Below are positions 40,961 to 47,069 of a DNA stretch of 64,000 bases, piece by piece. Numbering within the stretch: the stretch's first letter is position 1; each line of letters begins with the position of its first letter. The translations under genes and the position numbers were made by a program. The notes beneath the pieces were generated by a model. It did no database searches. It saw only the letters and a list, made by a program, of their open reading frames with translations, and was not told where the DNA came from. The DNA lies in the NCBI RefSeq assembly GCF_054482595.1, contig NZ_CM137008.1, one strand, 5' to 3'.

Positions 40961-42208
40961 ATGTCATTAAAAAAAAATGTTATATATCTAGTGTTGATGC
41001 AAGCGGTTAATTATATTGCTCCTCTTGTTTTAGTACCATATTTAACGCGAATCCTTGGAGTGGAAAAATATGGCGTTCTAGGTCTTGCTATTACGGTTAG
41101 CCAGTACTTAATTTTGTTGACGGATTTTGGTTTTAATTTTACTGCCAGTAGAAAAATAGCTCAATTTAAAGATAGTAAAGTCAGGGTTAGTCAAATATTT
41201 TGGACTATCATCTCAGCAAAATTTTTAATGATGATAGTATCATTCGGTTTAATTGTCCCTTTTGTTGTGTTTTCAGAAAAATTAAATCCCTTAAAATGGG
41301 AAATATTTTTAGTTTCGCTATCTGTAGTTGCGAGTGTGATTATTCCATCTTGGTTGTTTCAGGGGCTTGAAAAGGTTACAGTTTTTTCCGGCATCAATAT
41401 TTTTTCTAAGATTTTGATTGTGCCTCTTGTCTTTATTTTTGTGAAATCTAAGGAGGATTTACTGATTGCCTGCTTATTACAAGGTGGAGTGCAAGTATTT
41501 TCTGGAATAATATCCATATTGTATGTTAAGTATAATAAGATTATTTCATTTAAAGTTGTGAGGCCAAAATTAATCTTTATATATTTAAAAGAGTCTCTAT
41601 CAGTATTTTTAGGTAATTTATCTATTTCTTTATATACTCTCAGTACGCCCTTAGTTTTAGCTCTTATGGGGACAACGTATCAAGTTGGGCTTTATAGTGC
41701 CACTGATAGAATCAGAGGGGCTGCAATTGGTATCTTTATAGTTGTTGGATATGCAATTTTCCCCAGAGTAAGCTATTTGTTTAAAAAAAATCCCTTAGAA
41801 GCTAATGTTTTGCTTAAAAAAATAATATTTATCTTCTCGATTCTGGGATGTTTAGGTGGAGTACTTGTATATAGTATTGCTGATGAGATTGTTTTAGTTG
41901 CATTTGGTAATCAATATTTAGATTCTGCCATTCTTTTGAAAATAATGGCGCCTATGTTTTTACTCATTCCTCTTTCAATAATTATGGCAAACTACTTATT
42001 ATTGCCAAATGGTTTTAAAAAAGAGTATGCAAAAAATTCTGTGATAGTATGCTTATTGCATATGACATATGTTTTCCCTCTTTGTAAATACTATGGTGCA
42101 GTTGGCGGTAGTTATTCGATTCTTATTTCAGAGATAATAAGCTTTATTTTATTAATTTTTTGGACGATAAAAAATAATTTATTGAAGAAGGTTTTTTATG
42201 CAAGATAA
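40961..42208 (+). CDS. wzx: O-antigen flippase (Wzx, PST family)
   Basis: 415-aa polytopic membrane ORF, AT-rich, first gene after JUMPStart. Confidence 0.85.
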   Translation: MSLKKNVIYLVLMQAVNYIAPLVLVPYLTRILGVEKYGVLGLAITVSQYLILLTDFGFNFTASRKIAQFKDSKVRVSQIFWTIISAKFLMMIVSFGLIVPFVVFSEKLNPLKWEIFLVSLSVVASVIIPSWLFQGLEKVTVFSGINIFSKILIVPLVFIFVKSKEDLLIACLLQGGVQVFSGIISILYVKYNKIISFKVVRPKLIFIYLKESLSVFLGNLSISLYTLSTPLVLALMGTTYQVGLYSATDRIRGAAIGIFIVVGYAIFPRVSYLFKKNPLEANVLLKKIIFIFSILGCLGGVLVYSIADEIVLVAFGNQYLDSAILLKIMAPMFLLIPLSIIMANYLLLPNGFKKEYAKNSVIVCLLHMTYVFPLCKYYGAVGGSYSILISEIISFILLIFWTIKNNLLKKVFYAR

Positions 42209-43199
42209 TAAAAGTATAAAACTAAGCGTTATAATACCATGTTGGAACTGTAGTAAATATATCACAAAAACATTGGATTCTATCAAATATTCATATTATA
42301 TGTCTAGAAAGCCAATTTTAGAGATTATTTTAGTGGATGATGGCTCTACAGACTTAACAAGCAAAATAATCAAAGCGTATGACTTCGGAACTCGAGCGGT
42401 TAATGTTAAATATCATTTTCAAAATAACGCCGGTCCTAGTAAGGCACGAAATCAAGGAATTAAATTAGCGCAAGGTAGGTATGTGACTTTCTTGGATTCG
42501 GATGATATATGGAGTCCAGATTACCTTAGAATCATAGAGTCTATAATGGACAAATATGATTCTGAAATTATTGAATTTAATGCCGTTAGGTTTATTGAAG
42601 AAAATGCCAATTTAAAAATTCATAATAATTATACATTAGTGGACGAGGAGTATCATGGTCCTATAAATGAACGTATTCTTTCTGAGGTTTTTATAAAAAG
42701 CGAGTGGTATGTTTGGGCTCGTGTTTACAAAAAAAAACTTTTGGAAGGAGAGTCCTTCAATGAAAATATTACACATCATGAAGATGCTGAATTTCTACCA
42801 CGGATTTATCTTACAGCTAAATCAATCAGCAGAATTACTTCCCAGTTAATTTATTATAGATTAACGCAGAATAGTATTACAACAAAACCAAAAATTAGTA
42901 GCATCAAAGATCTCACTTTAGTATGCGAATTGTATTATGAAAATATCAATGGGCCAAATGACAAATATTATAAGGCTGCAATGATCAACTGTCTCTGGGG
43001 TTTAAAAAGACTAATCCTTGATAAAGGAGAATTTAGTTATATAAAAAAAAGTAGAATATTATATTACTGCCATATTGCTAGAAATAGTTCACAACTTTTT
43101 AATATGTTAAGTTGGAAAAAAAGATTATTTGTTTATCTTCCTCGAACCTATATATTTTTAAATTCCCTTAAATATAAGCTGTCAAAACGTGGTGCATAA
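42198..43199 (+). CDS. Glycosyltransferase family 2
   Basis: 333-aa ORF; LSVIIPCWN ... ILVDDGSTD ... DSDD motifs. Confidence 0.85.
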   Translation: MQDNKSIKLSVIIPCWNCSKYITKTLDSIKYSYYMSRKPILEIILVDDGSTDLTSKIIKAYDFGTRAVNVKYHFQNNAGPSKARNQGIKLAQGRYVTFLDSDDIWSPDYLRIIESIMDKYDSEIIEFNAVRFIEENANLKIHNNYTLVDEEYHGPINERILSEVFIKSEWYVWARVYKKKLLEGESFNENITHHEDAEFLPRIYLTAKSISRITSQLIYYRLTQNSITTKPKISSIKDLTLVCELYYENINGPNDKYYKAAMINCLWGLKRLILDKGEFSYIKKSRILYYCHIARNSSQLFNMLSWKKRLFVYLPRTYIFLNSLKYKLSKRGA

Positions 43200-44131
43200 T
43201 GGAAATATCAATAGTAATTCCACTGTATAACAAAGAGAATTATATCAAGAGGACGTTGCTTTCAATAATTGATACTTTTGGGAGAGTCTATAACGAGAAA
43301 GAGTATGAAATAGTCATCGTGGATGATGGGTCAAAAGATAAAAGTGTAAGTGTAGTAGAAAGTATAAATAGTAATGTTGTAAAACTCTACAAACAAGAAA
43401 ATGGCGGTCCTTCAAAAGCAAGAAATAATGGTGTAAATTTCAGTGATGGAAAATATGTCATTTTTTGTGATGCTGATGATATTATTTTGCCAAATTATGG
43501 TGATTATATAAAATATTCCATTGATAATTATCCTGACCATGATGTATTTGTTGCATTTAGCCGTGTTTTAAGAAACAGTAAAGAAAATTATAGCATACCT
43601 CTTTTTGACCCCGTGGATGTTTCTATTGTTGATGATTTTTTCTATGAGTGGGATAAGAGAAAGTTTTTTAGTGCATCGTCAATTTGTATAAAAAAACATT
43701 TCTTTATACAAAATGACTTGTATTTTGATGAAACGATTTCATCAGGTGAAGATTTATTGATGTTTTATAAAGCTGCGATTAAAACTAAATATGTTGCCTA
43801 TAGTCAACCGGCAGTATTATATGATAAAACAGTAGATTCGCAGTTAAGTTCTAATCCTGATTTGAAAATTGGTGCACATACTTATTTTTTAATAAAAGTC
43901 TACAAAACAGAGAATTTATCAGTCAAAGATAAAACTGCAATAAATCGAATTATCGATAAACAAATATGCTTTGTTGCAGTGGATAATCTCTTACGTAAAA
44001 AGTATGCAAATTCGTTAAATATAGTATTGTTCCGCAAACGAATGCTTTTACAACCTAAATTAGCTATAAAATTAATTATAGCCAGTATTTCGTATAAACT
44101 TTTTACTAAAATATCTAGTCTACTAAGATGA
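43199..44131 (+). CDS. Glycosyltransferase family 2
   Basis: 310-aa ORF; ISIVIPLYN ... IVDDGSKD ... DADD motifs. Confidence 0.85.
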   Translation: MEISIVIPLYNKENYIKRTLLSIIDTFGRVYNEKEYEIVIVDDGSKDKSVSVVESINSNVVKLYKQENGGPSKARNNGVNFSDGKYVIFCDADDIILPNYGDYIKYSIDNYPDHDVFVAFSRVLRNSKENYSIPLFDPVDVSIVDDFFYEWDKRKFFSASSICIKKHFFIQNDLYFDETISSGEDLLMFYKAAIKTKYVAYSQPAVLYDKTVDSQLSSNPDLKIGAHTYFLIKVYKTENLSVKDKTAINRIIDKQICFVAVDNLLRKKYANSLNIVLFRKRMLLQPKLAIKLIIASISYKLFTKISSLLR

Positions 44132-46244: not shown

Positions 46245-46250
46245 ATTAAT

Positions 46251-47069
46251 ATGAATTCGTTTGATGAGTTTAATGTGCTACTATCTCTTTATAAAAATGA
46301 GAGCCCCGATAATCTGGATGCGTGTTTTCAAAGCATAAGCACTCAATCTTTGAAAAGATTTAAAATAATACTTGTCATAGATGGTCCTATTTCTTCTGAG
46401 TTAAATGAGGTTGTCGGAAAGTGGAAGTCACTATTACCTATTAAAATTATCAATCTCGAACGTAATGTTGGCTTAGGTAATGCTTTAAATATAGGTTTGA
46501 AATATTGCAGTTGTGATTATGTGTTTCGTATGGATACAGATGATATTTGTCATCCGGATAGGTTTTCCATACAATTTAGTTATCTGAGGAAACACCCCGA
46601 TATTGATTTGCTTGGTGGACAGATTGTAGAATTCCATGAATGCATAGAGGAGCCTAACGGTATGCGGTTAGTACCTTCTAAATATGAGGAAATTCTTCAG
46701 TATTGTAAACTTAAAAACCCATTTAATCATATGACAGTTGTGTTTAAAAGAGAGAGTGTACTTAAGGTCGGTGGATATAAACATCATTTATATATGGAGG
46801 ATTATAATCTTTGGCTTCGTATGATATCAATTGGTTGCAAAGTGGAAAATTTAGATGATGTGATTGTTTTTGCCCGAACAGACGTGAATTCATTAATGAG
46901 ACGTAGAGGGTGGCAATATGTTAAAAGTGAATGGAAATTAGCACTGTTAAAAATAAAGTTAAGAATAAATAATCCTATTGTTTCTTTATCTGTTTTTATC
47001 CTCCGATCTATACCTCGATTATTACCTATTATGTTGATTCGTAGAATTTATGCCCACAACCGCAAGTGA
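46251..47069 (+). CDS. Glycosyltransferase family 2
   Basis: 272-aa ORF; FNVLLSLYKNE ... VIDGP ... MDTDD motifs. Confidence 0.8.
   Translation: MNSFDEFNVLLSLYKNESPDNLDACFQSISTQSLKRFKIILVIDGPISSELNEVVGKWKSLLPIKIINLERNVGLGNALNIGLKYCSCDYVFRMDTDDICHPDRFSIQFSYLRKHPDIDLLGGQIVEFHECIEEPNGMRLVPSKYEEILQYCKLKNPFNHMTVVFKRESVLKVGGYKHHLYMEDYNLWLRMISIGCKVENLDDVIVFARTDVNSLMRRRGWQYVKSEWKLALLKIKLRINNPIVSLSVFILRSIPRLLPIMLIRRIYAHNRK

What the first reader, a model, noticed from the sequence alone, without database searches (positions are those of the whole stretch)
42198..46260. Overlapping start/stop codons through the O-antigen genes
wzx and the first GT overlap by 11 bp, the two GTs share ATAATGG (stop/start overlap), and the GT-wzy and wzy-Stealth junctions each overlap by 4 bp (ATGA type). 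This implies translational coupling of the whole block as a single imported unit.
Basis: seen in the sequence. Interest (0 to 1): 0.2.

Follow-up and report, generated by a model that had tools for sequence, protein, structure and literature searches.

The report
Routine gene overlaps, O160 O-antigen operon
The four start/stop overlaps are real, but they are the commonest way neighbouring genes abut in bacterial operons, and they lie in the already described E. coli O160 O-antigen gene cluster, so the finding is ordinary.

Summary
Observation confirmed. Window 40961-47069 is the E. coli O160 O-antigen cluster (wzx, GT2, GT2, wzy, Stealth, GT2) between galF and gnd. It is 100% identical to several RefSeq genomes, and PGAP gives the same gene coordinates. 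Junction distances are -11, -1 (TAATG), -4 (ATGA), -4 (ATGA) and +6 nt. Three of the four overlaps cannot be annotated away, because the next in-frame start would delete a conserved N-terminal domain.

The pattern is not unusual. In six other E. coli O-antigen clusters, 21 of 58 junctions overlap and 40 of 58 are +6 nt or less (Fisher p = 0.076). In the literature, -4 and -1 are the commonest junctions in E. coli.

Translational coupling is plausible, above all for wzy, which has no Shine-Dalgarno sequence here or in three of four relatives. It is not implied by the overlaps: start regions are unstructured, and two of the overlapped genes have their own SD.

The "single imported unit" idea has support, but from other evidence: about 30% GC, a syntenic six-gene block in a probable Buttiauxella genome, and a 12.4-kb near-identical gnu-to-ugd segment shared by divergent E. 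coli backgrounds. Deeper relatives share only wzy, Stealth and one GT2, so the block is modular. Already known; low interest.

The parts
40845..40883 (+). JUMPstart element containing the ops site (GGCGGTAGCTTG at 40872-40883). It marks an RfaH-dependent operon leader upstream of wzx.
   Evidence: Rfam RF01707, 51.1 bits against a gathering score of 35. The ops core was located.
40961..42208 (+). wzx, the O160-family O-antigen flippase (415 aa). It is the first gene of the operon and has no Shine-Dalgarno sequence.
   Evidence: Pfam Polysacc_synt, 2.3e-41. PGAP name. SD dG +1.8.
42198..42208 (+). Junction 1: 11-nt overlap of the wzx 3' end with the GT2a start. An SD-like GAAGG sits 6 nt upstream of the ATG.
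   Evidence: Sequence. SD dG -5.5.
42198..43199 (+). GT2a, a family-2 glycosyltransferase (333 aa).
   Evidence: Pfam Glycos_transf_2, 3.5e-30, domain from residue 10.
43197..43201 (+). Junction 2: TAATG, a 1-nt stop/start overlap between GT2a and GT2b.
   Evidence: Sequence. SD dG -2.8, weak.
43199..44131 (+). GT2b, a family-2 (GT-A) glycosyltransferase (310 aa).
   Evidence: Pfam Glycos_transf_2, 1.7e-27, domain from residue 4.
44128..44131 (+). Junction 3: ATGA, a 4-nt overlap between GT2b and wzy. There is no SD upstream.
   Evidence: Sequence. SD dG +1.0.
44128..45228 (+). wzy, the O160-family O-antigen polymerase (366 aa). It has the lowest GC of the block (0.277).
   Evidence: PGAP name. 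100% identical to the NCBI 'O160 family O-antigen polymerase'. No Pfam hit.
45225..45228 (+). Junction 4: ATGA, a 4-nt overlap between wzy and Stealth. GAGG sits 5 nt upstream of the ATG.
   Evidence: Sequence. SD dG -6.3.
45225..46244 (+). Stealth-family protein (339 aa), a presumed hexose-1-phosphate transferase. It is the likely maker of the phosphodiester in the O160 repeat unit.
   Evidence: Pfam Stealth CR1, CR2 and CR3 above their cut-offs; CR4 below its cut-off. O160 is one of six E. coli serogroups with a sugar-P-sugar bridge (PMC9912281).
46245..46250 (+). 6-nt spacer (ATTAAT) between the Stealth stop and the GT2c start. This is the only non-overlapping junction.
   Evidence: Sequence.
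46251..47069 (+). GT2c, a family-2 glycosyltransferase (272 aa). It is conserved together with wzy and Stealth in all relatives whose contig covers the whole cluster.
   Evidence: Pfam Glycos_transf_2, 1.8e-21. 46-54% identical homologues in L005, L007 and L009.
38480..40611 (+). Flanking gnu (38480-39475, Und-PP-GlcNAc 4-epimerase) and galF (39718-40611). These form the left part of the 12.4-kb segment shared among O160 strains.
   Evidence: PGAP names. Identity profile.
47218..48624 (+). gnd, the right-hand boundary of the O-antigen locus.
   Evidence: Pfam 6PGD, 1.2e-135.

Best explanation
The region is the known Wzx/Wzy-dependent O160 O-antigen operon of E. coli.

Shown: one JUMPstart/ops (RfaH-dependent) leader is followed by six co-directional ORFs with only 6 non-coding nucleotides between the wzx start and the last stop. 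The -11, -1, -4 and -4 overlaps are the ordinary compact junctions of a bacterial operon.

Inferred: the block is read as one mRNA. RfaH helps load the first ribosome on the SD-less wzx. At the abutting junctions, a terminating ribosome can re-initiate on the adjacent start (termination-reinitiation). This matters most for wzy, which has no SD and would therefore be made at a low level set by GT2b translation. GT2a and Stealth have their own SD and can also initiate independently. Tight packing also leaves no untranslated gaps in an AT-rich foreign transcript.

The overlaps are a general operon feature. They are not a mark of importation.
For: Identity and annotation:
- 100% identical to the O160 clusters of RefSeq genomes, with the same PGAP coordinates.

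Single transcription unit:
- JUMPstart scores 51.1 bits.
- Promoter-like sites are not enriched (40 found, 41.2 expected). There is one weak terminator-like site against 2.4 expected.

Shine-Dalgarno strengths:
- wzx +1.8, GT2a -5.5, GT2b -2.8, wzy +1.0, Stealth -6.3, GT2c -2.7 kcal/mol.
- wzy also lacks an SD in L005, L006 and L009.

Relatives stay tightly packed while the exact geometry drifts:
- L005: -4, +1, -1, -1, -4.
- L007: -1, +1, -4, -1, +8.
- L006: +2, -4.
- L009: +8, +329, +4, +1, +6.

Background:
- 21 of 58 junctions overlap and 40 of 58 are +6 nt or less in the O157, O25, O180, O46/O134, O26 and O5 clusters.

Literature:
- -4 then -1 are the commonest E. coli junctions, and -8 to +6 nt covers 24% of all unidirectional pairs (PMC10666635).
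- 13 of 14 overlapping pairs were strictly coupled (PMC6728339).
- RfaH recruits 30S subunits to leaders that lack an SD (PMC5995543).
- wzy genes are characteristically low in GC, rich in rare codons and poorly expressed (PMC12004945).
Against: - There are no expression or ribosome-occupancy data, so coupling is inferred only.
- Start regions are weakly structured (-3.0 to -7.2 kcal/mol per 60 nt; cluster mean -6.9). SD-independent de novo initiation on AU-rich mRNA could suffice.
- Two of the four overlapped genes carry a moderate SD.
- In relative L009 the same genes are separated by +1 to +8 nt with no overlap. In L007, wzy has a GTG start with a good SD (-6.0). Overlap and absence of an SD are therefore not obligatory.
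- O160 is somewhat more compact than the sampled background (p = 0.076 against other O-antigen clusters; p = 0.028 against the colanic-acid operon). A modest extra pressure for compaction is not excluded.
Confidence: 0.8

Rival explanations
1. The overlaps are neutral by-products of genome compaction in AT-rich DNA. Stop codons are frequent in every frame, and ATG followed by A creates TGA. Each gene initiates independently, through SD-independent loading on unstructured AU-rich mRNA, its own SD, or RfaH-tethered ribosomes. On this view there is no functional coupling.
For: - Start regions fold weakly.
- GT2a and Stealth have SDs.
- Overlap geometry is not conserved between O160 and L005 at any junction: -11, -1, -4, -4, +6 against -4, +1, -1, -1, -4.
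- L009 keeps the genes apart by +1 to +8 nt.
- The C-terminal tails that form the overlaps are not conserved.
Against: - Where tested, E. coli pairs with -4 or -1 overlaps were almost always strictly coupled (PMC6728339).
- wzy has no SD in four of the five related clusters, yet its start always lies within 4 nt of, or overlapping, the upstream stop.
- Junctions remain +8 nt or less in 16 of the 17 junctions in relatives.
Confidence: 0.17
2. The overlaps are a specific signature that the block was imported as one piece, and they lock the genes together so that they can only move as a unit.
For: - The block has uniformly low GC.
- It is syntenic with L005.
- It is identical across divergent E. 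coli backgrounds.
Against: - The native-GC colanic-acid operon in the same window has overlaps too (wcaB-wcaC -4, wcaC-wcaD -26, gmm-wcaI -4, wcaK-wcaL -4), as does the his operon in a related genome.
- The segment recently shared among E. coli strains is 12.4 kb, from gnu to ugd, and is not delimited by the overlaps.
- Deeper relatives have reshuffled the block. wzx, GT2a and GT2b are replaced by other genes, and GT2c is moved upstream. The overlaps did not prevent rearrangement.
Confidence: 0.02
3. The overlaps are annotation artefacts. The true starts lie downstream and the genes do not overlap.
For: wzy has an in-frame GTG at codon 8 (44149) that would remove its overlap.
Against: - For GT2a, GT2b and Stealth the next in-frame start is codon 26, 20 and 64. 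Each would delete a conserved N-terminal domain.
- The homologues in L005 begin within 0-3 residues of the same positions.
- PGAP agrees in every genome examined.
Confidence: 0.01

Closest known systems
E. coli O160 O-antigen gene cluster. RefSeq genomes, e.g. NZ_CP102679.1 and NCTC11023. The structure and genetics paper (Perepelov et al. 2015, Carbohydr Res 417:89) is cited in PMC7685785.
   Same: - 100% (NCTC11023: 99.8%) nucleotide identity over 40600-47220.
- Same six genes, same order, same annotated coordinates and overlaps.
- gnu lies upstream of galF, as the review states for O160.
   Different: Nothing in the cluster itself. The window's flanks differ by 2-5% from those of the other O160 genomes.
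Translational coupling by termination-reinitiation at -4 (ATGA) and -1 (TAATG/TGATG) overlaps (Huber et al. 2019, PMC6728339; Huber et al. 2023, PMC10666635). The classic example is trpB-trpA.
   Same: - Co-directional genes in one operon.
- Three junctions of exactly the canonical -4 or -1 type.
- An SD inside the upstream gene at two junctions.
   Different: - Coupling was not measured here.
- One junction is -11 nt.
- The products are not known subunits of one heteromeric complex, the class in which such overlaps are enriched.
Syntenic low-GC cluster in GCA_965119215.1 (L005). The organism is probably Buttiauxella, because its WcaM falls in a cluster of at least 90% identity with B. izardii WcaM.
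   Same: - Same order: galF, wzx, GT2, GT2, wzy, Stealth, GT2, gnd.
- GC 0.30.
- All junctions are +1 nt or less.
- wzy has no SD.
   Different: - Only 47-60% amino-acid identity.
- A different overlap at every junction (-4, +1, -1, -1, -4).
RfaH/JUMPstart-controlled polysaccharide operons of Enterobacteriaceae.
   Same: - A JUMPstart with an ops site 78 nt upstream of the first gene.
- The first gene lacks an SD.
- RfaH is reported to recruit ribosomes to such leaders (PMC5995543).
   Different: Dependence on RfaH was not tested for this cluster.

Membership tests
E. coli Wzx/Wzy-dependent O-antigen gene cluster, serogroup O160 | Located between galF and gnd | tested here: met
   galF 39718-40611 and gnd 47218-48624 flank the block.
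E. coli Wzx/Wzy-dependent O-antigen gene cluster, serogroup O160 | Serogroup-specific wzx and wzy sequences | tested here: met
   100% identical to the RefSeq 'O160 family' flippase and polymerase.
E. coli Wzx/Wzy-dependent O-antigen gene cluster, serogroup O160 | JUMPstart/ops leader | tested here: met
   RF01707, 51.1 bits, at 40845-40883.
E. coli Wzx/Wzy-dependent O-antigen gene cluster, serogroup O160 | Gene content matches the O-unit chemistry: GalNAc as the initial sugar and a sugar-phosphate-sugar bridge | tested here: met
   gnu lies upstream of galF and a Stealth phosphotransferase is present. O160 is listed among the phosphodiester-bridged serogroups. The full structure paper is not held, so linkage-by-linkage assignment was not possible.
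Termination-reinitiation (TeRe) translationally coupled gene pairs | Co-directional genes on one transcript | tested here: inconclusive
   One JUMPstart leader, no enrichment of promoter-like sites and no credible terminators. No transcript data.
Termination-reinitiation (TeRe) translationally coupled gene pairs | Stop and start overlap, or lie within a few nt of each other (-8 to +6) | tested here: met
   -1, -4, -4 and +6. The fifth junction is -11, just outside that range.
Termination-reinitiation (TeRe) translationally coupled gene pairs | SD motif within the 3' end of the upstream gene (common, not obligatory) | tested here: inconclusive
   Present at GT2a (-5.5) and Stealth (-6.3). Weak or absent at GT2b (-2.8), wzy (+1.0) and GT2c (-2.7).
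Termination-reinitiation (TeRe) translationally coupled gene pairs | Downstream translation depends on upstream translation reaching the junction | not testable with these tools
   Needs premature-stop reporter constructs or ribosome profiling.
Stealth protein family (hexose-1-phosphate transferases) | Conserved regions CR1 to CR4 | tested here: met
   CR1 43.1 bits (cut-off 27.2), CR2 132.8 (39.4) and CR3 34.5 (24.2) are above their cut-offs. CR4 scores 20.0 against 27.4, below its cut-off but aligned at the C-terminus.

The most novel reading that the evidence does not exclude
wzy, Stealth and GT2c form a conserved, mobile three-gene core. It occurs in chromosomal O-antigen loci (E. coli O160 and a probable Buttiauxella genome), on Enterobacter and Citrobacter plasmids, and in a wzc/gfcC-type capsule locus. 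wzy almost always lacks an SD, and the upstream stop and the Stealth start each lie within 4 nt of it or overlap it. The tight wzy-Stealth junction could reflect obligatory coupled, fixed-ratio synthesis of a polymerase and a phosphotransferase that act as a physical pair, which is the class of gene pairs in which short overlaps are enriched (PMC10666635). That would be a previously unrecognised Wzy-partner complex specific to phosphodiester-containing repeat units.
Probability: 0.07. Interest if true: 0.4.

Novelty: already known. Interest (0 to 1): 0.08.

Why it matters
It matters little. The overlaps confirm that the O160 cluster is a compact single operon, and they offer a simple rationale for the low, upstream-dependent expression of the SD-less wzy. 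Anyone re-engineering the cluster, for example for glycoconjugate vaccine production, should know that separating or re-ordering these ORFs may change wzy and downstream expression. The comparative by-product, a conserved wzy-Stealth-GT2 core that moves between chromosomal, plasmid and capsule contexts, is a modest lead on how phosphodiester-containing surface polysaccharides spread.

Tried and rejected
- I assumed the window was collinear with XH989 so that I could borrow its annotation. This was wrong outside about 34-51 kb, so XH989 annotation was used only for the cluster and for colanic-acid junction distances.
- Two sampled background clusters (O102; O169) are riddled with frameshifts and fragmented genes. 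They were left out of the junction statistics.
- The O160 structure paper (PMID 26451883) is not held, and the review has no supplement held. The exact repeat-unit structure could therefore not be matched to the glycosyltransferases.
- NCBIfam gave no above-cut-off family for any of the six proteins.
- The word-indexed protein search found only one wzy relative. The full HMM scan was needed to find more.
- The promoter and terminator scan is uninformative in 30% GC DNA beyond showing no enrichment.
- The genome contigs and metagenome scans were not run. Four related clusters were enough, and the cost was not justified for an ordinary finding.
- A binomial test against the genome-wide 24% figure (four of five junctions within -8 to +6 nt; P about 0.013 by my own arithmetic) was rejected as the wrong null. 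That figure includes pairs that span operon boundaries.
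Full report
WHAT IS THERE

The finding lies in a low-GC island (GC 0.28-0.33, against 0.50-0.55 on either side) between galF (39718-40611) and gnd (47218-48624). 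The island holds six co-directional ORFs:
- wzx, 40961-42208 (Pfam Polysacc_synt)
- GT2a, 42198-43199
- GT2b, 43199-44131
- wzy, 44128-45228 (no Pfam hit)
- a Stealth CR1-CR3 protein, 45225-46244
- GT2c, 46251-47069

Megablast against complete E. coli genomes finds the 6.6-kb region in 15 genomes at 99% identity or more. Several are 100% identical, and every one is annotated 'O160 family O-antigen flippase/polymerase'. This is therefore the known O160 O-antigen gene cluster. [quoted passage not shown] O160 is one of only six E. coli serogroups with a sugar-phosphate-sugar bridge (PMC9912281), which accounts for the Stealth hexose-1-phosphate transferase.

CHECKING THE OBSERVATION

Reading the sequence confirms every junction as described:
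- wzx TAA at 42206-42208 against the GT2a ATG at 42198: 11-nt overlap.
- GT2a TAA at 43197-43199 against the GT2b ATG at 43199: TAATG, 1-nt overlap.
- ATGA at 44128-44131: GT2b and wzy.
- ATGA at 45225-45228: wzy and Stealth.
- Stealth and GT2c are separated by 6 nt.

PGAP places the same starts and stops in XH989, NCTC11023, QA-1986 83 and KKo009. The junction sequences are identical in all four.

Each ATG is the first start after an in-frame stop. The next in-frame start is codon 26 (GT2a), codon 20 (GT2b) or codon 64 (Stealth), and each would remove the conserved N-terminal strand or CR1. Only wzy has a close alternative, GTG at codon 8. Its alignment with a 47%-identical homologue starts at residue 1.

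IS IT MORE THAN CHANCE OR ORDINARY PRACTICE?

No.

- I tabulated junction distances in six other E. coli O-antigen clusters from RefSeq annotation: O157, O25, O180, O46/O134, O26 and O5. Of 58 junctions, 21 (36%) overlap and 40 (69%) are +6 nt or less.
- O160's 4 of 5 overlapping gives Fisher one-sided p = 0.076. Its 5 of 5 at +6 nt or less gives p = 0.17.
- The O46/O134 cluster is just as compact (+1, +1, -4, -44, +2).
- The neighbouring native-GC colanic-acid operon has four overlaps in 19 junctions (-4, -26, -4, -4).
- Published genome-wide counts show that -4 and then -1 are the commonest distances between unidirectional E. coli genes, and that -8 to +6 nt covers 24% of all such pairs (PMC10666635).

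O160 sits at the compact end of a normal range.

SURROUNDINGS AND TRANSCRIPTION

A JUMPstart element with the ops sequence GGCGGTAGCTTG lies at 40845-40883, 78 nt upstream of wzx (Rfam RF01707, 51.1 bits). Inside the block, promoter-like sites are not enriched (40 found, 41.2 expected). The single terminator-like hairpin is within expectation. This fits one RfaH-dependent transcript, but that is inferred rather than shown.

TRANSLATION SIGNALS

Hybridisation of the -20 to -3 region to the 16S rRNA 3' tail gives, in kcal/mol:
- wzx +1.8
- GT2a -5.5
- GT2b -2.8
- wzy +1.0
- Stealth -6.3
- GT2c -2.7
- For comparison, galF -8.2 and gnd -6.9

So wzx and wzy have no SD, two glycosyltransferases have weak ones, and GT2a and Stealth have moderate ones. 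The SD-less wzx behind an ops site matches the reported role of RfaH in recruiting 30S subunits to leaders that lack an SD (PMC5995543).

The SD-less wzy starts inside the GT2b stop (ATGA). It is the best candidate for termination-reinitiation, which also fits the low GC, rare codons and notoriously low expression of wzy genes (PMC12004945).

All start regions fold weakly: -3.0 to -7.2 kcal/mol per 60 nt, against a cluster mean of -6.9 and -14.1 in the colanic-acid operon. Coupling by unmasking a structured start site is therefore unnecessary, and independent initiation cannot be excluded.

RELATIVES

The word-indexed search found one wzy relative (47% identity). A full HMM scan found 47, six of them at E < 1e-30. 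Their contigs were informative.

- L005 (GCA_965119215.1). Its WcaM falls in a cluster of at least 90% identity with Buttiauxella izardii WcaM. It carries the same galF, wzx, GT2, GT2, wzy, Stealth, GT2, gnd order at 47-60% amino-acid identity and GC 0.30. Its junctions are -4, +1, -1, -1, -4.
- L006, L007/L008 and L009/L010 are more distant. L007/L008 is a plasmid locus flanked by IS copies; the same cluster occurs at 99.6-99.7% identity on Enterobacter cloacae and Citrobacter plasmids. L009/L010 is a capsule-type locus with wzb, wzc and gfcC/yjbF/yjbH. All three keep wzy immediately followed by Stealth (+2, -1, +1). L007 and L009 also keep a GT2c homologue (46-54% identity). They replace wzx, GT2a and GT2b with a different 513-523-aa protein, other glycosyltransferases and a GT4, and they place GT2c upstream.

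Two conclusions follow. First, tight packing is conserved (16 of 17 junctions are +8 nt or less), but the exact overlap at each junction is not. This is what a general pressure for compaction or coupling predicts, rather than a special feature of this block. Second, the six-gene block is a unit at the O160/Buttiauxella depth but is modular further back.

'SINGLE IMPORTED UNIT'

The overlaps do not bear on this, since native operons have them too. Other data do. The uniformly low GC and GC3 (0.21-0.29) of all six genes contrast with galF and gnd. The window also shows almost no differences from XH989 and QA-1986 83 between about 38,429 and about 50,811/50,938: none inside the cluster against XH989, and one against QA-1986 83. 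On either side it differs at 20-50 sites per kb. So the piece recently exchanged among E. coli lineages is a 12.4-kb segment running gnu, galF, O160 cluster, gnd, IS200 remnant, ugd. It was presumably moved by homologous recombination in the flanks. This is larger than the six-gene block and is not delimited by the overlaps.

VERDICT

The thing observed is an ordinary property of a known operon. Translational coupling is a reasonable mechanism, most likely at GT2b-wzy and possible at the other junctions, but it is not demonstrated. Importation as a unit is supported by evidence other than the overlaps, with the caveats above. Novelty: already known. Interest: low.

Noticed in passing
L004 (NZ_CP102679.1, XH989) 3020-14000; L020 (NZ_CP091673.1, KKo009) 32423-44503: Two other genomes that carry the O160 cluster between galF and gnd also carry a complete ABC-transporter-type O9 (XH989) or O8 (KKo009) O-antigen cluster between wzzB and hisI. 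In XH989 a group II intron (ltrA) sits between rfbK and wzm. The window itself runs straight from wzz to his. Which antigen such double-cluster strains express is unclear.
   Followed up: no
window 48689-49280: An IS200/IS605 tnpA pseudogene (internal stop in RefSeq homologues) lies between gnd and ugd. The IS200-associated structured RNA STnc490 (Rfam RF01405, 144 bits) is at 48689-48812. The remnant lies inside the 12.4-kb segment that is near-identical among O160 strains, so it travels with the cluster.
   Followed up: partly
window ~38429 to ~50811/50938: There are sharp identity breakpoints. The window has almost no differences from XH989 and QA-1986 83 across gnu, galF, the O160 cluster, gnd and ugd, but 20-50 differences per kb outside and about 140-165 per kb in wzz (51-52 kb). 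This is a recombination tract that carries the serogroup between lineages.
   Followed up: yes
L007 3744-10253; L008 3744-10253 (CP180599.1, 72-kb plasmid); AP022136.1; NZ_CP056402.1: A related polysaccharide cluster (GT2, GT2c-like GT2, 523-aa putative flippase, wzy, Stealth, GT4) is plasmid-borne in Enterobacter cloacae and Citrobacter sp. In L008 it is bracketed by two IS26-like (DDE_Tnp_IS240) transposase genes, which suggests a composite-transposon route for moving this module.
   Followed up: partly
L009 44-13996: The same wzy-Stealth-GT4 core, with a GT2c homologue, sits in a capsule-type locus between wzb-wzc and yjbF/gfcC/yjbH-like genes in an unidentified metagenomic contig. The core therefore serves both O-antigen and capsule pathways.
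   Followed up: no
L007 5433-7004; L009 5120-6661: A 513-523-aa protein with no Pfam hit immediately precedes wzy in the distant relatives, where O160 has GT2b. One plasmid record annotates it as 'sugar transporter', so it is probably a divergent flippase.
   Followed up: no
window 6067-9384 (- strand): A 1105-aa ORF on the minus strand is intact in the window. The corresponding diguanylate cyclase gene in XH989 is truncated next to an IS1. The window also has about 5 kb (about 1518-6818) that is not collinear with XH989.
   Followed up: no
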